Positions 15,564-59,843 of a stretch of DNA of 64,000 nucleotides are shown piece by piece. The DNA comes from Candidatus Giovannonibacteria bacterium RIFCSPHIGHO2_12_FULL_44_22 (lineage in GTDB: Bacteria; Patescibacteriota; Minisyncoccia; UBA11713; 2-01-FULL-45-33), in NCBI GenBank assembly GCA_001778695.1, contig MFHU01000003.1:1521-65520 (forward strand). The letters run 5' to 3'. A program made the translations under genes and the position numbers. The notes under the pieces are model-generated. The model ran no database searches, was not told the DNA's origin, and worked only from the letters and a program-made list of their open reading frames with translations. The first letter of the stretch is position 1, and the number at the start of each line of letters is the position of its first letter.

Positions 15564-17315
15564 ATGAAAATAGAAGAGCAACAATTGAAGGCCTTCCTCT
15601 TAGATTCGGAGCTGGTAAAAAAAGAAGATATTAAAAAGGCCGAAACGGAAGCCAAGAAAAGCGGCAAAAAAATAGACGATGTTCTTTTAGCTTGGGGAAA
15701 AATAAACGAGGAAGAGCTGGCGCGATTAAAAGCTTATATTTTAGGGATTCCCTTCGTGAACCTGGAAGGGGAAAAAATTGACGCGAAAGTGCTGGCCGTG
15801 ATTCCCGAGCCCATCGCCAAAAAACATAATATTGTTTCATTTAAAAAAAACGGCAGCAATTTGGAGGTGGCTATGCTGGATCCAGAAGATCTTGTGACTA
15901 TTGAATTTATCAAAAAAACCGCGGATTTTAAAATTTTTCCACGCCTGACCAATGTCGCTTCCATGAAATACGTCCTTTCGCAGTACCAGAAAAGCTTGGC
16001 GGCGGAATTTGGAGAAATTATAAAAGTGGATAGCGAGACGCTGGCCACGGTGCTTAAAGAACCTGGTGACGAAGTTGATGTTGAAGATTTAAAAAAAACC
16101 GCGGAGGATTTGCCCATCGTCCGCATCGTGGATACTTTAATAAGGCACGCAATTTTACAGCGCTCTTCCGACATTCATATTGAGCCCACGGAAAAAGAAG
16201 TTTTGGTAAGATATCGCATAGACGGAATTTTGCACAACGCCATGGTTCTGCCCAAGCAGGTGACTTCTGGAATTGTGGCTCGCATCAAAGTTTTGGCAAA
16301 TTTAAAATTGGACGAGCATCGCCTGCCGCAGGACGGCCGTTTTAAAATTGAAACTACAGAGTACAAATATTCTTTGCGCGTTTCCATACTGCCTGTTTTT
16401 GACGGCGAAAAAGTCGTAATGCGGCTCCTTCCGGAAAATGCCAAAGGGTTCACTTTAGAAGATTTGGGTTTTCACGGAGAAGCTTTGGAGGCGCTTTATA
16501 AAAATATTAAAAAGCCATTGGGGATGATTTTGGCCACAGGCCCCACGGGCTCCGGGAAAACCACCACGCTTTACACTATTTTATCTTTGCTCAACCTTCC
16601 CGGAGTAAATATTTCAACAATTGAGGACCCGGTTGAATACAGGATGCCAAGAGTCAATCAAACGCAGGTCAGGCCGGATATCGGACTTTCTTTTGCTACT
16701 GGACTTCGTTCGCTGGTTCGCCAGGACCCGGATATTATTATGGTGGGAGAAATTCGCGATACCGAAACCGCCAACTTGGCCATCAATGCGGCGCTCACCG
16801 GCCATTTGGTGCTTTCATCGCTCCACACCAATTCCGCCGCCGGGTCTTTGCCTAGACTTTTGGATATGAAAGTGGAGCCGTTTTTAATAGTTTCCACCAC
16901 CAATGCCATAATTGCCCAAAGATTAGTGCGAAAGCTCTGTGGGGAGCCGGAAAAACATATTCTTACCGAAGCCGAGATAAAAAAATTAGGCGAGCACGTG
17001 GATTTGGAGCGGGTTTTGGAATTTTTGAAAAAAGAAAAAATAGTTTCGCTCAAAGCAGTTTGGAAAGATATTCCCTTTTTTAGGCCGAAGCTTACGGCGG
17101 AATGCCAAGACGGCTATTCCGACCGCATCGGCATTCATGAGGTTTTGGAAATGACTCCGACAATCAAGGATTTGCTTATGAAGAGCGCCACCTCCGACCA
17201 GATTGAGGAGCAGGCAAAAAAAGAAGGCATGATGACCATGGTGGAGGATGGCATAACGAAATGCGTTCAAGGGCTCACAACCATAGAAGAAGTGTTTAGG
17301 GTGACAATGGAATAA
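15564..17315 (+). CDS. pilB: type IV pilus assembly ATPase PilB/GspE
   Basis: 583 aa. N-terminal GSPII_E_N domain, Walker A GPTGSGKTTT, Asp box, His box. Confidence 0.9.
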   Translation: MKIEEQQLKAFLLDSELVKKEDIKKAETEAKKSGKKIDDVLLAWGKINEEELARLKAYILGIPFVNLEGEKIDAKVLAVIPEPIAKKHNIVSFKKNGSNLEVAMLDPEDLVTIEFIKKTADFKIFPRLTNVASMKYVLSQYQKSLAAEFGEIIKVDSETLATVLKEPGDEVDVEDLKKTAEDLPIVRIVDTLIRHAILQRSSDIHIEPTEKEVLVRYRIDGILHNAMVLPKQVTSGIVARIKVLANLKLDEHRLPQDGRFKIETTEYKYSLRVSILPVFDGEKVVMRLLPENAKGFTLEDLGFHGEALEALYKNIKKPLGMILATGPTGSGKTTTLYTILSLLNLPGVNISTIEDPVEYRMPRVNQTQVRPDIGLSFATGLRSLVRQDPDIIMVGEIRDTETANLAINAALTGHLVLSSLHTNSAAGSLPRLLDMKVEPFLIVSTTNAIIAQRLVRKLCGEPEKHILTEAEIKKLGEHVDLERVLEFLKKEKIVSLKAVWKDIPFFRPKLTAECQDGYSDRIGIHEVLEMTPTIKDLLMKSATSDQIEEQAKKEGMMTMVEDGITKCVQGLTTIEEVFRVTME

Positions 17316-54558: not shown

Positions 54559-54732
54559 CATCTTCCTTCTGTGCTCCCGATCCAAGGGGCCGTGCGCGAA
54601 TTCTTGCGCCGGCTCTTTTTCTTTTCAAAGAATTTGCCGCCAAACCCACCAAAAGTTTCGTATTTAGGCGGGCAGAGAAAAACTTGAAATTGGCAACTGG
54701 AAATTTTGGCCGATAGATGCTAGTATAAAAAC

Positions 54733-54978
54733 ATGAATAATTGGTTTTATGGTTCATATGGCCATTGGGCCAGCCCCTTTTGGGGAGGATTTGGCGTGGG
54801 ATTTTTGGCGCCGATTTTATTGGTTTTGATTCTGTGGAGTTTCTATTGGAAAACCAGAGCCTTGTGGCGCGCCGCCAAAAACGGGGACAAAGCTTGGTTT
54901 GTCGTTTTGATTTTGGTCCAATCCCTCGGTCTTCTGGACATTCTCTACCTCTACGTTTTCGGCAAAAAATCGGAGTAA
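54733..54978 (+). CDS. small two-TM membrane protein
   Basis: 81 aa with two hydrophobic helices (FGVGFLAPILLVLILWSF, WFVVLILVQSLGLLDILYLYVF). Confidence 0.4.
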   Translation: MNNWFYGSYGHWASPFWGGFGVGFLAPILLVLILWSFYWKTRALWRAAKNGDKAWFVVLILVQSLGLLDILYLYVFGKKSE

Positions 54979-55278
54979 GGGGCCTACCCCCACACCAACT
55001 TATGTTTTATGTGTATGTTCTGAAAAGCAAGAAAGATGGCGAGTTTTACATTGGCTCTACCAACGATTTACGTAGAAGGTTTAAAGAACATAATGATGGA
55101 AAGGTTTTTTCAACAAAATCTCACATACCATTTGAAATTATTTATTACGAGGCGTATAAAAAAGAGGAAGATGCTAGACGCAGAGAATCAAATCTGAAGT
55201 TGCGATCGCGAGCCTTTGCACAACTTAAGAAACGAATAGGCGCATCTTCCAAAACATAAGTTGGTGTGGGGGCCTATA
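54979..55278. mobile_element. GIY-YIG mini-element: nuclease gene flanked by about 20-bp inverted repeats, abutting the tRNA-Ala 5' end
   Basis: Left GGGGCCTA-CCCCCACACCAACTTATG; right CATAAGTTGGTGTGGGGG-CCTA. The right repeat merges into the tRNA-Ala acceptor (GGGCCTA). The left end carries a copy of GGGGCCTA, a possible target duplication. Confidence 0.45.
55002..55259 (+). CDS. GIY-YIG nuclease-family protein
   Basis: FYVYVLKSKKDGEFYIGSTNDLRRRFKEHNDG... is the classic GIY-YIG (UPF0213-like) motif. 85 aa. Confidence 0.8.
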   Translation: MFYVYVLKSKKDGEFYIGSTNDLRRRFKEHNDGKVFSTKSHIPFEIIYYEAYKKEEDARRRESNLKLRSRAFAQLKKRIGASSKT

Positions 55279-55340
55279 GTAAAATGGTATTACGCGTCCA
55301 TGGCATGGACGAGGTGCGAGTTCGATTCTCGCTAGGTCCA
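55270..55340 (+). tRNA. tRNA-Ala (anticodon GGC)
   Basis: GGGCCTATAGTAAAATGGTATTACGCGTCCATGGCATGGACGAGGTGCGAGTTCGATTCTCGCTAGGTCCA. G3:U70 identity pair present. Anticodon loop ATGGCAT. Confidence 0.82.
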
Positions 55341-55360
55341 AAACAATAAATTATTATTTT

Positions 55361-55395
55361 ATCAACCTCCACACCAACACATTTTGGTGTGGGGG
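55361..55395. repeat. third copy of the CCACACCAA / TTGGTGTGGGGG hairpin downstream of tRNA-Ala
   Basis: CTCCACACCAACAC-ATTT-TGGTGTGGGGGTC. Same arm sequence as the GIY-YIG element inverted repeats. Confidence 0.45.
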
Positions 55396-55442
55396 TCAAG
55401 ATAGCGGGTAGAGAAAAGTTATGGTATTTTAAATTTATTAAT

Positions 55443-56027
55443 ATGTATTTGGATTTGAAGACAAATTTCGCGGATCTCGCGGACGATGAAATTCTGAAGA
55501 AGTCACAGGACAATCCTTCGCTTTTTTCGGTTTTGATTGATAAATACCAGCTTCCTTTCGTGAGAAAAGCGCAGGGAATAGTCCACTCCAAAGAGGAAGC
55601 CGAAGACATTGTGCAGGAGACTTTCACCAAAATTTATTTAAACGCGGGAAAATTTAAAAAACAGCCGGGCGTGGAATTTAAAAGCTGGGCCTGGCGGATT
55701 TTGGTGAATACTTCACTTACTCATTATAGAAAGCTCAAAAAAAGTTTCGGAGACGTAGGTTATCTGGACGAAATTTTGGCGGACGACGAAAAAACCGAAT
55801 CGCTTTTTTCCATGGAAGATAATCTGGACAGAAACGAGAATATAGGCGAGGTGCGTGAGGCGATTGAGAAAATGCCTTCCGAGGCGGCCGAGCTTTTGCG
55901 GGCGCATTATGTGGAGGACCGGCCTTACGCCGAAATTGCCAGAAAACAGGGGATTTCCATAGGCGCTTTAAAGATGAAACTTTTTCGCGCGCGCAAGGTT
56001 TTAAAGGATATCATGAAGCAGGCTTAA
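55443..56027 (+). CDS. ECF-type (sigma-24 family) RNA polymerase sigma factor
   Basis: Region 2 (EEAEDIVQETFTKIY...WAWRILVNTSLTHYR) and region 4 (PYAEIARKQGISIGALKMKLFRAR). Start at the internal Met. Confidence 0.8.
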   Translation: MYLDLKTNFADLADDEILKKSQDNPSLFSVLIDKYQLPFVRKAQGIVHSKEEAEDIVQETFTKIYLNAGKFKKQPGVEFKSWAWRILVNTSLTHYRKLKKSFGDVGYLDEILADDEKTESLFSMEDNLDRNENIGEVREAIEKMPSEAAELLRAHYVEDRPYAEIARKQGISIGALKMKLFRARKVLKDIMKQA

Positions 56028-56443: not shown

Positions 56444-56479
56444 TTTTCTTTTTGGTAAAAAGTTGTATAATTTCAAAAT

Positions 56480-56552
56480 CCGCCCATAGCTCAATTGGCA
56501 GAGCAGGTCCCTCTTAAGGACAAGGTTGTAGGTTCAACTCCTACTGGGCGGA
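56480..56552 (+). tRNA. tRNA-Lys (anticodon CTT)
   Basis: CCGCCCATAGCTCAATTGGCAGAGCAGGTCCCTCTTAAGGACAAGGTTGTAGGTTCAACTCCTACTGGGCGGA. Anticodon loop CTCTTAA. C1:G72 and one anticodon-stem mismatch. Confidence 0.7.
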
Positions 56553-56560
56553 AAAATATT

Positions 56561-56648
56561 GGAGGTGTGGCTGAGTGGTTGAAGGCGCCGCTCTCGAAAA
56601 GCGGTGTCGCCGACAAGGCGACCGGAGGTTCGAATCCTCCCACCTCCG
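56561..56648 (+). tRNA. tRNA-Ser (anticodon CGA)
   Basis: Class II tRNA with long variable arm. Anticodon stem CCGCT/AGCGG, loop CTCGAAA. Acceptor GGAGGTG/CACCTCC. Confidence 0.85.
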
Positions 56649-56665
56649 AAAATAAATTAAAATAA

Positions 56666-59600: not shown

Positions 59601-59672
59601 GGCGCCGTAGCCAAGTGGTAAGGCAAGGGACTGCAAATCCCTTATACGAGGGTTCAATTCCCTCCGGCGCCT
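59601..59672 (+). tRNA. tRNA-Cys (anticodon GCA)
   Basis: GGCGCCGTAGCCAAGTGGTAAGGCAAGGGACTGCAAATCCCTTATACGAGGGTTCAATTCCCTCCGGCGCCT. Anticodon loop CTGCAAA. U73 discriminator. Confidence 0.85.
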
Positions 59673-59683
59673 CAAAATCTTTC

Positions 59684-59765
59684 GCCGGGGTGGTGAAATT
59701 GGCAGACACACTAGCTTTAGGAGCTAGCGCCGAAAGGCATGCGGGTCCAAATCCCGCCCCCGGCA
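59684..59765 (+). tRNA. tRNA-Leu (anticodon TAG)
   Basis: Class II tRNA. Anticodon stem CTAGC/GCTAG, loop TTTAGGA. Long variable arm. Confidence 0.85.
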
Positions 59766-59772
59766 TTAGAAC

Positions 59773-59843
59773 GCGGCCATGGTTTAGTGGCAGAACATAT
59801 CCTTGCCAAGGATAGGATGGGGGTTCGATTCCCCCTGGCCGCA
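59773..59843 (+). tRNA. tRNA-Gly (anticodon GCC)
   Basis: GCGGCCATGGTTTAGTGGCAGAACATATCCTTGCCAAGGATAGGATGGGGGTTCGATTCCCCCTGGCCGCA. Anticodon loop TTGCCAA. Confidence 0.85.

What the first reader, a model, noticed from the sequence alone, without database searches (positions are those of the whole stretch)
54979..55400. GIY-YIG nuclease mini-element with terminal inverted repeats fused to the 5' end of tRNA-Ala
An 85-aa GIY-YIG protein gene is bracketed by CCCCCACACCAACTTATG and its reverse complement. The right repeat runs straight into the tRNA-Ala acceptor stem (GGGCCTA). The left end carries an extra copy of GGGGCCTA, consistent with a short target-site duplication. A third copy of the hairpin arm (CCACACCAA...TTGGTGTGGGGG) lies just after the tRNA. 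This looks like a very small autonomous or homing element targeting the tRNA-Ala 5' flank.
Basis: seen in the sequence. Interest (0 to 1): 0.65.

Follow-up and report, generated by a model that had tools for sequence, protein, structure and literature searches.

The report
Tiny GIY-YIG mobile element in tRNA-Ala
A 286-bp inverted-repeat element whose only gene is an 85-residue GIY-YIG nuclease sits inside the 5' end of a tRNA-Ala gene and rebuilds that end with its own terminal bases; it belongs to a large family of miniature mobile elements in CPR bacteria that I could not find described in the literature I could search.

Summary
A GIY-YIG ORF (55002-55259) is enclosed by a perfect 22-bp inverted repeat (54987-55008 / 55251-55272). 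The last three G of that repeat are nucleotides 1-3 of tRNA-Ala(GGC). GGGGCCTA occurs on both sides. A 30-bp ORF-less hairpin with the same arms follows the tRNA.

Comparison shows both are insertions. Related Giovannonibacteria carry the element at this site, carry a decayed copy, carry only a footprint, or have a clean tRNA-Ala. None of them has the 30-bp hairpin, which is flanked by a 4-bp duplication (TCAA).

Across about 80 other CPR genomes the same protein lies within roughly 21-bp inverted repeats. The ends are conserved (CCCCCACACC...GGTGTGGGGG) and the inner stems covary. The elements have 4-bp target duplications (preferred target GGG-TTNA-CC) and many ORF-less miniatures. Copies sit at tRNA ends, in 16S rRNA, at RNase P RNA and in prepilin leader codons. 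At this tRNA-Ala site and in three prepilin genes, the element end plus the duplication recreates the host sequence.

Most likely this is a minimal transposon-like element mobilised by its Slx1/UPF0213-like nuclease. That role and the cutting chemistry are inferred, not shown. I found no published description.

The parts
54979..54986 (+). Left copy of GGGGCCTA. Positions 54980-54986 (GGGCCTA) are the inferred original nt 1-7 of tRNA-Ala, now cut off from the gene. Positions 54983-54986 (CCTA) are the left target-site duplication.
   Evidence: Direct repeat D15. A clean tRNA-Ala site in L096/L097 reads aaaacGGGCCTATAG with no duplication. The family-wide duplication is 4 bp.
54987..55008 (+). 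Left terminal inverted repeat (22 bp), which contains the ATG at 55002.
   Evidence: Inverted repeat I1, 100% complementary. Identical in relative L091 although the ORF between the arms is 10.5% diverged at the nucleotide level.
55002..55259 (+). GIY-YIG nuclease gene, 85 aa, of the UPF0213/Slx1-like branch.
   Evidence: Pfam PF01541 E=1.8e-17. Closest solved sequence is 1ZG2, E=2.9e-10. AlphaFold2 pLDDT 85.8; best structural matches are 1ZG2 and Slx1. dN/dS is 0.07 against L091.
55251..55272 (+). Right terminal inverted repeat (22 bp), which contains the TAA stop. Its last three G are tRNA nt 1-3.
55273..55276 (+). Right copy of the 4-bp target-site duplication CCTA, equal to tRNA nt 4-7.
55270..55340 (+). 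tRNA-Ala(GGC). It is intact; its 5' acceptor strand is rebuilt from the element end plus the duplication.
   Evidence: ARAGORN; Rfam RF00005 at 63.7 bits.
55362..55399 (.). ORF-less miniature element: a 30-bp hairpin at 55366-55395 flanked by the 4-bp duplication TCAA (55362-55365 and 55396-55399).
   Evidence: Inverted repeat I7. Relatives L091, L092 and L093 read TTTTGTCAAGATAGCGGG uninterrupted at this position, and L094/L095 read TTTTGTCAAGGTGGCGAG, also without the hairpin.
54733..54978 (+). Upstream DUF5652 gene. Its stop codon lies 1 nt before the old tRNA start. It is the likely source of read-through transcription of the element and the tRNA.
   Evidence: Pfam PF18893 E=1.3e-20. No promoter-like site lies between this gene and the tRNA.

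Best explanation
The segment 54987-55272 is one copy of a family of miniature transposon-like elements of CPR/Patescibacteria. Each element has about 21-bp terminal inverted repeats with conserved ends (CCCC[C/G/T]CAC...GTG[G/C/A]GGGG). The full-length form carries a single gene for a bare GIY-YIG catalytic domain related to UPF0213 and Slx1.

Shown by comparison: the element entered the tRNA-Ala gene between nt 7 and 8 and duplicated CCTA. Because the element ends in GGGGG, its last GGG plus the duplicated CCTA recreate the 5' acceptor strand, so the tRNA gene stays whole. A second, ORF-less 30-bp copy inserted 22 nt downstream of the tRNA (between 55365 and 55366) and duplicated TCAA.

Inferred: the GIY-YIG protein is the element's own nuclease. 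It recognises a quasi-palindromic site, GGG-N4-CC, which is present at empty targets and is rebuilt at both element junctions. It makes cuts staggered by 4 nt. The element is then moved or copied, and the ORF-less miniatures are mobilised in trans.

Also inferred: this copy has no promoter of its own and is transcribed from the upstream gene. In the RNA the 22-bp stem closes off the insert, and RNase P cuts at the tRNA 5' end. The tRNA therefore matures normally, and the nuclease mRNA is left ending in a protective stem.
For: It is an insertion. The organism is a Candidatus Giovannonibacteria MAG from Rifle groundwater. At this site:
- L091 (about 90% nt identity in the flanking genes) has the same element at the same place.
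- L114 has a 166-bp in-frame-deleted remnant in a tRNA-Ala(GGC), with the same GGGGCCTA | CCTA junctions.
- L092/L093 lack the element but keep GGGCCTA-C-GGGCCTATAG.
- L096/L097 have a clean tRNA-Ala.
- The 30-bp hairpin is absent from every relative, and the undisturbed site carries a single TCAA.

Family level:
- About 55 of 80 homologous loci, nearly all titled as CPR/Patescibacteria MAGs, have the ORF enclosed by 13-26-bp inverted repeats with the same ends.
- Complementarity holds through position 21 and then collapses.
- 15 of 21 stem positions show changes on both sides. 87.7% of cells pair, against 68.7% in shuffles (0 of 500 reach the observed value) and 44-56% when the partner is slid.
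- 30 of 81 distinct elements have an exact 4-bp flanking duplication, against 1 and 3 in offset controls (P about 2.5e-22). The target consensus is GGG-TTNA-CC.
- Hairpins in the C...G orientation are found 164 times in 369 kb (a count that includes nested, overlapping hits from C-run offsets), against 1 in the opposite orientation. ORF-less forms range from 26 to 150 bp.
- One genome carries two copies that are 97% identical at two different tRNA 3' ends, plus 98-bp miniatures sharing the first 17 nt of the ends.
- Proteins with the same type of end are more alike: 60.5% versus 53.8% identity, P=9e-32.

The gene is kept functional. dN/dS is 0.07 at dS 0.5, and the 44 repeat bases are unchanged (P about 0.008). 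The conserved positions Y5, Y16, G18, R26, H30 and E62 are invariant and N64 is nearly so.

Host sequence is regenerated in another setting too. In three prepilin genes the element sits in the Gly-Phe-Thr codons with duplication TTTA, and its right repeat encodes (K/Q)-S-G-A-G, which restores the Gly before the cleavage site.

Element ends overlap tRNA ends in 13 of 74 loci, against about 1% expected by chance (P about 8e-13).
Against: - No activity of the protein has been shown, and no GIY-YIG enzyme is known to carry out strand transfer. With only 85 residues there is no separate DNA-binding domain.
- This particular copy has been inherited vertically since before the split from L091 (dS 0.5), so it is not recently mobile.
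- L092/L093 are not clean empty sites. They fit an imprecise loss, but could instead be an older tandem duplication into which the element inserted.
- Only 37% of elements have an exact 4-bp duplication. Four tRNA-5' copies of the CCCCTCAC subtype have 7-bp duplications (one of them with a mismatch), which does not fit a fixed 4-nt stagger.
- Loci were collected through the protein, so the abundance of miniatures is measured only near GIY-YIG genes.
- A trans-acting transposase encoded elsewhere has not been excluded.
- Mismatches in the stems show no sense-strand G-U bias (35 G-T against 29 C-A), so an RNA role for the stem is not independently supported.
Confidence: 0.65

Rival explanations
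1. It is a classical free-standing homing endonuclease gene. The nuclease cuts the empty tRNA-Ala allele, and the gene is copied in by double-strand-break repair using flanking homology. The inverted repeats play no part in mobility.
For: GIY-YIG is a standard homing-endonuclease fold. The same tRNA-Ala 5' site is occupied in WIN, L091 and L114, and similar sites are occupied in L055, L060, L068 and L087. All stages of a homing cycle are seen: intact, decayed, lost and naive.
Against: Homing does not create target duplications, yet 30 of 81 elements have exact 4-bp ones. Elements of 26-150 bp with no ORF insert at unrelated sites that share no flanking homology. The protein lacks the linker and DNA-binding domain found in I-TevI and Seg enzymes. 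No group I intron is present. The predicted recognition-like sequence is duplicated by insertion rather than destroyed.
Confidence: 0.15
2. It is an ordinary MITE-like inverted-repeat element mobilised by an unrelated transposase (for example a DDE enzyme that makes 4-bp duplications) encoded elsewhere. The GIY-YIG gene is cargo or a stabilising passenger.
For: Inverted-repeat ends plus a fixed short duplication are the hallmark of DDE transposition (general knowledge of IS elements). GIY-YIG enzymes are hydrolytic nucleases with no known strand-transfer activity. ORF-less copies appear at least as numerous as ORF-bearing ones near the loci examined.
Against: The only gene ever found between these ends, across about 55 genomes of many CPR lineages, is this 84-86-aa protein. 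Type of end and protein similarity co-vary. The gene is under strong purifying selection. The called genes of L001-L010, which span about 3 kb on each side of the element, include no transposase. A cargo gene would not be expected to overlap both repeats with its start and stop codons.
Confidence: 0.12
3. It is not mobile DNA. The hairpins are host RNA-processing or terminator stems of the tRNA operon, and the GIY-YIG protein is a housekeeping UPF0213-type nuclease that happens to lie between them.
For: The closest solved relatives are the UPF0213 proteins BH0048 and EF2693 of unknown function. The stem is strongly predicted in RNA (MFE -113 kcal/mol, z = -4.8). The gene is conserved between two lineages.
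Against: Both the element and the 30-bp hairpin show presence/absence polymorphism among close relatives, with duplicated target bases. Copies inside 16S rRNA and prepilin genes, and abutting the conserved core of RNase P RNA, cannot be operon terminators. No T-run follows the hairpin, and no terminator-like site was called there.
Confidence: 0.04

Closest known systems
Free-standing and intron-encoded GIY-YIG homing endonuclease genes (T4 Seg proteins, I-TevI, I-BmoI)
   Same: Same catalytic fold. A small selfish nuclease gene that occupies conserved host genes, with patchy presence, decay and loss among relatives.
   Different: The protein here is the 85-aa catalytic core only, with no linker or DNA-binding domain, and it is closer to UPF0213/Slx1 than to I-TevI. 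The element has its own ~21-bp inverted-repeat ends, makes 4-bp target duplications and has ORF-less miniature derivatives. None of those is a feature of homing. No intron is present.
Insertion sequences and their MITEs (for example IS5- or IS630-type elements; Correia and RUP elements)
   Same: Terminal inverted repeats, a short fixed target duplication, a preferred short target, ORF-less derivatives that share the ends, and tandem or nested insertions.
   Different: No known IS family encodes a GIY-YIG enzyme as its only protein (my knowledge; none turned up). The full element is under 330 bp. The inner parts of the repeats differ completely between elements yet stay complementary. The ends mimic the target, so host sequences are regenerated.
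REP/REPIN elements and their RAYT transposases
   Same: A low-copy nuclease gene flanked by inverted hairpin-forming repeats, with many short palindromic derivatives in the same genome.
   Different: RAYTs are HUH Y1 transposases, and their REPs carry a GTAG or CGTC tag and make no target duplication (PMC3733652, PMC3337134). Here the enzyme is GIY-YIG, the ends are CCCC...GGGG, and 4-bp duplications are made.
Intervening sequences (IVS) of rRNA genes, some of which carry an ORF (23S_rRNA_IVP), removed by RNase III
   Same: A long stem encloses an ORF inside a structural RNA gene, so the host RNA can still fold. Family members L057 and L073 sit inside the 16S rRNA gene, at what looks by sequence like the variable helix-17 region. 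Tsurumaki et al. 2024 (PMC11270868) recorded GIY-YIG ORFs in non-intron insertions of CPR rRNA genes.
   Different: The window copy is in a tRNA gene, not an rRNA gene. The family also inserts into protein-coding and intergenic DNA and makes target duplications. RNase III cleavage has not been tested. That paper does not mention inverted repeats, palindromes or hairpins.
UPF0213 (BH0048, EF2693) proteins and the Slx1 structure-specific endonuclease
   Same: Best sequence matches (1ZG2 E=2.9e-10, 1YWL E=4.8e-6) and best structural matches (Slx1 TM 0.62-0.68, rmsd 1.6-2.1 A). Slx1 cuts branched and stem-loop DNA, which suits an element with palindromic ends.
   Different: It has no Slx1 RING/zinc-finger domain and no Slx4 partner. 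UPF0213 proteins have no known function and, to my knowledge, have not been linked to mobile DNA.

Membership tests
GIY-YIG nuclease superfamily (Pfam PF01541) | Significant match to the family profile over the whole catalytic domain | tested here: met
   E=1.8e-17, 63.8 bits against a cut-off of 22.6; profile positions 1-74 of 78 matched.
GIY-YIG nuclease superfamily (Pfam PF01541) | Conserved catalytic positions: the two Tyr of the GIY and YIG motifs, plus Arg, His, Glu and Asn | tested here: met
   Y5, Y16, G18, R26, H30 and E62 are invariant and N64 is nearly invariant across 26 homologues. Mapping these onto the catalytic residues of I-TevI or UvrC rests on my knowledge of the fold.
GIY-YIG nuclease superfamily (Pfam PF01541) | Beta-beta-alpha-alpha-beta-alpha fold | tested here: met
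   AlphaFold2 pLDDT 85.8, with elements E2-9 E15-20 H23-32 H36-41 E44-52 H55-67 H69-83. Foldseek hits are UPF0213, Slx1, I-TevI and UvrC.
GIY-YIG homing endonucleases (I-TevI / Seg type) | Catalytic domain joined to a C-terminal DNA-binding domain | tested here: not met
   The protein is 85 aa and the GIY-YIG domain covers residues 1-71. The NCBIfam group I intron endonuclease model matches only residues 4-38, at 26.7 bits against a cut-off of 56.
GIY-YIG homing endonucleases (I-TevI / Seg type) | Carried in a self-splicing intron or intein, or free-standing between phage genes | tested here: not met
   No intron family matches 54700-55700 at E<=1. Only 2 distant relatives were found in 2.9 million viral contigs.
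GIY-YIG homing endonucleases (I-TevI / Seg type) | Presence/absence polymorphism at a conserved host site | tested here: met
   Filled in WIN and L091; decayed in L114; footprint in L092/L093; naive in L096/L097.
GIY-YIG homing endonucleases (I-TevI / Seg type) | Cleaves the empty allele and spreads by double-strand-break repair | not testable with these tools
   This needs enzymology. The target duplications argue against simple homing.
Insertion sequence / MITE | Terminal inverted repeats | tested here: met
   22 bp and perfect here. About 21 bp across the family, with covariation.
Insertion sequence / MITE | Target-site duplication of fixed length | tested here: met
   CCTA and TCAA in the window. 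30 of 81 elements have an exact 4-bp duplication, against 1-3 in controls. Exceptions with 5 or 7 bp exist.
Insertion sequence / MITE | Several copies per genome, including non-autonomous ones that share the ends | tested here: met
   One full copy plus one miniature in the window. L067 and L071 are 97% identical copies in one genome, alongside 98-bp miniatures. Miniatures are found in many loci. No whole-genome census was possible.
Insertion sequence / MITE | Encodes a transposase of a known class (DDE, DEDD, HUH, serine or tyrosine recombinase) | tested here: not met
   The only ORF is GIY-YIG.
REPIN-RAYT | HUH Y1 (RAYT) transposase and REP hairpins carrying a GTAG or CGTC tag | tested here: not met
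   The protein is GIY-YIG. The ends are CCCC...GGGG and have 4-bp duplications.
rRNA/tRNA intervening sequence removed by RNase III | A long stem in a structural RNA gene that is cut out of the transcript | tested here: inconclusive
   The stem is predicted, and family members lie inside 16S rRNA genes. Cleavage cannot be tested, and stem mismatches show no RNA-strand bias.
Group I intron in a tRNA gene | Match to group I intron covariance models, with insertion in the anticodon loop | tested here: not met
   No intron hit. The insertion is at tRNA position 7/8. The survey of Patescibacteria tRNA introns (PMC13011429) does not mention GIY-YIG or inverted repeats.

The most novel reading that the evidence does not exclude
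These are a previously undescribed class of minimal prokaryotic transposable elements. Their sole gene is an Slx1/UPF0213-like GIY-YIG nuclease that acts as the mobility enzyme. Their palindromic ends copy the preferred target (GGG-N4-CC), so each insertion rebuilds the host sequence it interrupts. The host's own maturation enzymes then trim the insert from the product: RNase P at tRNA 5' ends, rRNA processing, and prepilin peptidase for GIY-YIG-pilin fusions. This would let the elements live inside essential, highly expressed genes of very small genomes.
Probability: 0.5. Interest if true: 0.9.

Novelty: new variant of a known kind. Interest (0 to 1): 0.8.

Why it matters
If the GIY-YIG protein moves these elements, it adds a new enzyme class to prokaryotic transposition. 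At under 330 bp, these would be among the smallest possibly autonomous mobile elements known.

It would also explain several loose observations about CPR genomes. These include GIY-YIG ORFs in non-intron rRNA insertions, reported horizontal transfer of GIY-YIG genes out of Patescibacteria, and the many short contigs that carry this gene.

The end-mimics-target design shows how an insertion can be neutral inside a tRNA gene or a prepilin gene. It suggests a general strategy of using host RNA and protein processing sites to remove the insert.

In practical terms, a compact nuclease with a defined short target and palindromic substrates could be tested directly at the bench. The elements also mislead annotation: extra acceptor-stem copies, pilins labelled 'GIY-YIG nuclease family protein', and interrupted 16S rRNA genes.

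Tried and rejected
- Rfam at E<=1 on 54700-55700 found only the tRNA. There was no intron, riboswitch or known hairpin family.
- No further copy of the ORF exists in the window. The lone CCACACCAA at 16823 has no partner arm and looks like chance.
- The promoter and terminator scan found no promoter-like site upstream of the ORF (the only plus-strand hit lies inside the coding sequence) and no terminator at the 30-bp hairpin. The only terminator-like calls near the element are on the minus strand and arise from the small GGGG-CCTA-CCCC palindrome at the left junction.
- Phage origin was tested. Only 2 distant relatives (40-41% identity) turned up in IMG/VR.
- I tested whether stem mismatches favour G-U on the sense strand, which would point to an RNA-level constraint. 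They do not: 35 against 29.
- I considered that the 8-nt repeat GGGGCCTA is the target duplication. I rejected this in favour of 4 bp plus the element's own G-run, because the family norm is 4 bp and the miniature next door has a clean 4-bp TCAA.
- I considered that the hairpins were pre-existing host stems into whose loops the ORF homed. This is not excluded as the origin of some copies. It does not explain the target duplications of the hairpins themselves, or remnants such as L114 that show miniatures arising by internal deletion.
- Eight literature searches found no description of an inverted-repeat-flanked GIY-YIG element or of GIY-YIG-pilin fusions. The library lacks most subscription journals, so prior description cannot be excluded.
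- L137, a fourth pilin fusion, gave no 9-mer inverted-repeat seed and was not analysed further.
Full report
**What is in the window**

The window comes from a Candidatus Giovannonibacteria (CPR/Patescibacteria) genome from Rifle groundwater, GCA_001778835.1.

Between a DUF5652 gene (54733-54978) and an ECF sigma-factor gene lies an 85-codon ORF at 55002-55259. It matches Pfam GIY-YIG at E=1.8e-17.

The ORF is enclosed by a perfect 22-bp inverted repeat: CCCCCACACCAACTTATGTTTT at 54987-55008 and its complement at 55251-55272. The repeat contains both the ATG and the TAA.

ARAGORN and Rfam place tRNA-Ala(GGC) at 55270-55340. The tRNA's first three G are therefore the last three bases of the right repeat.

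GGGGCCTA occurs immediately left of the element (54979-54986) and again across the right junction (55269-55276).

Twenty-five bases after the tRNA lies a 30-bp hairpin at 55366-55395 with the same arms and a 6-nt loop.

The arm motif is far commoner than chance: 5 matches against 0.16 expected, and 3 against 0.04.

**Both pieces are insertions**

Homologues of the flanking sigma factor led to orthologous loci in related Giovannonibacteria. Flanking genes are 82-92% identical at the DNA level.

| Locus | State at the tRNA-Ala site |
|---|---|
| L091 | Same element at the same place; identical 22-bp arms; ORF 89.5% identical |
| L114 | 166-bp remnant in a tRNA-Ala(GGC) with a different upstream neighbourhood; codons 3-42 deleted in frame; same junctions GGGGCCTA \| ... 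\| CCTA |
| L092, L093 | No element; sequence reads cccGGGCCTA-c-GGGCCTATAGTAAAATGG, keeping both copies of GGGCCTA with a single C between them |
| L096/L097 | Clean tRNA-Ala with the same 5' half (aaaacGGGCCTATAG), no duplication |

The series is intact, decayed, footprint and naive, which is what a mobile insertion leaves behind.

The 30-bp hairpin is clearer still. L091, L092 and L093 read TTTTGTCAAGATAGCGGG where the window reads TTTTATCAA[30 bp]TCAAGATAGCGGG, and L094/L095 read TTTTGTCAAGGTGGCGAG, also uninterrupted. The hairpin is thus an insertion flanked by a 4-bp duplication, TCAA.

**How the tRNA survived**

Take the family's 4-bp duplication as the rule (see below). The ancestral sequence was then ...TAA-G-GGGCCTATAGTAAAATGG, and the element entered after tRNA nt 7, duplicating nt 4-7 (CCTA).

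The old nt 1-7 are now stranded at 54980-54986. The working gene begins with the element's terminal GGG followed by the right-hand CCTA.

This step is inference from the comparison, not a demonstrated event.

An alternative cannot be excluded: the L092-type tandem GGGCCTA-C-GGGCCTA may have come first, with the element inserting between the two copies. Even then the duplication most likely records an earlier visit of such an element.

**The family**

The protein has well over 900 close homologues (70-92% identity), many on short contigs. At 50% clustering it has 1,052 representatives with E<=1e-10.

I fetched 80 loci from different species genomes, nearly all titled as CPR/Patescibacteria MAGs. 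The findings were:

- In about 55 loci the ORF is enclosed by inverted repeats of 13-26 bp. The outer bases are conserved, (A)CCCC[C/G/T]CAC(A)C... The inner bases differ completely between elements but remain complementary.
- Anchored at the ends, complementarity is at least 75% through position 19 and still 56-58% at positions 20-21. It falls to chance level at position 22.
- On 25 aligned elements, 87.7% of cells pair. Shuffles give 68.7% (0 of 500 reach the observed value) and slid partners give 44-56%. Fifteen of 21 pairs change on both sides.
- Among 81 distinct elements, with or without an ORF, 30 have an exact 4-bp flanking direct repeat. Offset controls give 1 and 3 (P about 2.5e-22). 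The commonest duplications are TTTA and TTGA. The reconstructed target is G-rich at -3 to -1 and C-rich at +1 and +2, giving GGG-TTNA-CC.
- That target resembles the two element ends placed back to back. As a result, both junctions of an inserted element look like the target again. This also explains the tandem arrays separated by 4 nt in L064, L067 and L071.
- ORF-less elements of 26-38, 50-71, about 98 and 121-150 bp are frequent around these genes and in metagenomes. Many have clean 4-bp duplications.
- Hairpins in the C...G orientation are found 164 times in 369 kb (counting nested offsets), against once in the opposite orientation.
- One genome carries two 97%-identical full copies at the 3' ends of tRNA-Leu and tRNA-Pro, plus several 98-bp miniatures sharing the first 17 nt of the ends.
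- Proteins of elements with the same type of end are more similar to each other: 60.5% against 53.8%. The gene and the ends therefore evolve as a unit.

**Where the elements sit**

In 18 of 74 loci a tRNA lies within 60 nt. In 13 of those the element end overlaps the tRNA end by 1-4 nt, at 5' ends (tRNA-Ala of three anticodons, tRNA-Val) or at 3' ends (His, Ile, Phe, Leu, Pro, Gly). Chance expectation is about 1% per element, giving P about 8e-13.

L057 and L073 are inside 16S rRNA genes, at what looks by sequence like the variable helix-17 region. L063 abuts the conserved GGAAAGTCC core of an RNase P RNA that Rfam detects. L066 abuts the same motif, although Rfam reported no RNase P RNA there at the gathering threshold.

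The rRNA cases match the report by Tsurumaki et al. 2024 that GIY-YIG ORFs in CPR rRNA genes lie in insertions that are not introns (PMC11270868).

**A second example of host regeneration, found in passing**

Many relatives of 227-372 aa are fusions of the GIY-YIG domain to a type IV prepilin. All share the linker ...KSGAG|FTL(I/V)E....

The DNA of three such loci (L133, L134, L136) shows the same kind of element. It has 16-17-bp repeats of the form ACCC[C/A]GCACCACTTT, and it is inserted in the Gly-Phe-Thr codons of the prepilin cleavage motif with duplication TTTA.

The left flank keeps the old leader, for example MERNKTLAGFT in L133. The nuclease ORF has no stop codon. The right repeat, AAAAGTGGTGC[G/T]GGG (CAAAGTGGTGCTGGG in L136), is read as (K/Q)-S-G-A-G and so supplies the Gly that must precede the cleavage site. 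The duplicated TTTA restores Phe-Thr.

A homologous pilin locus with nearly identical upstream DNA is uninterrupted: L135, MERNKTLRNNAG|FTLTELLVV.

The nuclease domain has thus become a giant prepilin leader, which prepilin peptidase would be expected to remove. GGG-TTT-ACC is also exactly the family's consensus target.

**The protein**

It is the bare catalytic core. The AlphaFold2 model (pLDDT 85.8) has the GIY-YIG beta-beta-alpha-alpha-beta-alpha topology plus a basic C-terminal helix.

The nearest solved structures by sequence are the UPF0213 proteins BH0048 (1ZG2, E=2.9e-10) and EF2693, followed by Slx1. By structure they are 1ZG2 and Slx1 (TM 0.62-0.68, rmsd 1.6-2.1 A), ahead of I-TevI and UvrC.

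The conserved positions that I take to be the catalytic ones are kept across the family.

Between the window and L091, dN/dS is 0.07 at dS 0.5. The 44 repeat bases are unchanged, with P about 0.008 at the ORF's level of divergence. Both the gene and the ends are under selection.

**How it most likely works**

Shown:
- Insertion of both elements, with 4-bp duplications.
- Conserved ends and a stem of about 21 bp maintained by compensating changes.
- ORF-less derivatives, and at least one decay series.
- Regeneration of host sequence at this tRNA-Ala 5' end and at three prepilin cleavage sites.

Inferred:
- The GIY-YIG protein, probably as a dimer on the quasi-palindromic GGG-N4-CC site, cuts target and element junctions with a 4-nt stagger. 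The element is then moved by cut-and-rejoin, or copied during repair of the break.
- Its Slx1-like ancestry fits recognition of the stem-loop or cruciform that the ends can form.
- This copy has no promoter, and only 23 nt separate the ATG from the upstream stop codon. It is probably transcribed with the DUF5652 gene and the tRNA.
- The 22-bp RNA stem (MFE -113 kcal/mol, z = -4.8) closes off the insert, and RNase P releases the tRNA.
- Other subfamilies carry a TTGTCG-N17-TATAAT-like box a few bases before the ATG. That suggests leaderless expression.

**Weak points**

- No enzymology exists, and GIY-YIG enzymes are not known to join DNA.
- Only 37% of the duplications are exact.
- Four tRNA-5' copies have 7-bp duplications, one with a mismatch.
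- The L092 site is a footprint rather than a clean empty site.
- A transposase acting in trans has not been excluded.

**Comparison with known systems, and novelty**

The element combines features of two known kinds. From IS/MITE elements it has inverted-repeat ends, target duplications and miniatures. From homing-endonuclease genes it has a GIY-YIG nuclease, occupation of conserved RNA genes, and a cycle of gain, decay and loss.

It fails a defining test of each. It has no known transposase class. It has no DNA-binding domain, no intron, and it makes target duplications.

It resembles REPIN-RAYT in layout but not in enzyme or in end sequence. It resembles rRNA intervening sequences in being a stem-enclosed ORF within structural RNA.

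Eight full-text searches found no description of it or of the pilin fusions. A 2026 survey of tRNA introns in Patescibacteria does not mention it.

I rate it a new variant of a known kind. There is about an even chance that it is a new class of transposable element.

**Verdict**

Interest 0.8.

Noticed in passing
L133:1186-1467, L134:1174-1473, L136 (about 980-1270); proteins P0253, P0255, P0258, P0260, P0270, P0286, P0278, P0423: The GIY-YIG domain is fused in frame to type IV prepilins. The element sits in the Gly-Phe-Thr codons of the prepilin cleavage motif with duplication TTTA. Its right repeat is translated as (K/Q)SGAG, restoring the Gly before the cleavage site, so the nuclease becomes a giant leader that prepilin peptidase should remove. 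A homologous pilin locus, L135, is uninterrupted. More than 100 such fusion proteins appear among the hits. No paper pairs GIY-YIG with pilin.
   Followed up: partly
L057:2463-2772 and L073:2471-2761 (inside 16S rRNA genes); L063:2466-2775 and L066:2472-2762 (abutting GGAAAGTCC of RNase P RNA): Family members lie inside 16S rRNA genes, by sequence in the variable helix-17 region, and at what may be the P3 position of RNase P RNA (my reading; not verified against a structure). The element stem would extend a host RNA hairpin, much like an intervening sequence. Rfam detected RNase P RNA in L063 but not in L066.
   Followed up: partly
L033, L037-L039, L042, L047, L048, L053 (25-55 nt between the left repeat and the ATG): One subfamily carries a TTGTCG/TTATCG-N17-TATAAT-like box ending a few bases before the ATG. 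This suggests an internal promoter and leaderless mRNA. The window's subfamily has no room for a promoter.
   Followed up: no
L029, L030, L034-L036, L054: In the CCCGCACAC subfamily the GIY-YIG ORF is not enclosed by the repeats. It lies just upstream of a 71-140-bp ORF-less element, and a conserved ATGTTATTATTTATA box precedes the ATG. In L035 a further left-end copy lies 40 nt upstream of the ATG. The architecture is unexplained.
   Followed up: no
L085:2484-2780; L023:2486-2790: At some tRNA 3' ends the left repeat is the tRNA's own acceptor 3' strand plus CCA (for example ACCCGCTCCA). A 10-12-nt copy of the tRNA end follows the right repeat. A simple 4-bp duplication does not explain this.
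   Followed up: no
window 55277-55296 compared with L091, L092 and L094: The orthologous tRNA-Ala genes are mosaics. WIN and L092 share one D-arm (TAGTAAAATGGTATTACGCG), while L091 and L094 share another (TAGTTCAGTGGCAGAACGCG). T-arms group differently: WIN with L091. This may reflect recombination or co-conversion next to the element.
   Followed up: no
L134:1927-2286: A 23S_rRNA_IVP (PF05635, bAvd-like) gene lies directly after a GIY-YIG-pilin fusion within a pilin gene cluster. It is another ORF type usually found inside rRNA intervening sequences.
   Followed up: no
window 1-64000: The window holds 15 tRNA genes in 64 kb, a high density, several in tight clusters (56479-56649 and 59601-59843). 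None of the others carries an element.
   Followed up: no
window 54975-55345 (RNA fold): In the predicted RNA fold the stranded upstream GGGCCUA pairs with the tRNA 3' acceptor strand, stacked on the 22-bp stem. The precursor could therefore form a tRNA-like shape with the whole element as an insert at position 7/8. Whether RNase P ever uses that alternative is unknown.
   Followed up: no
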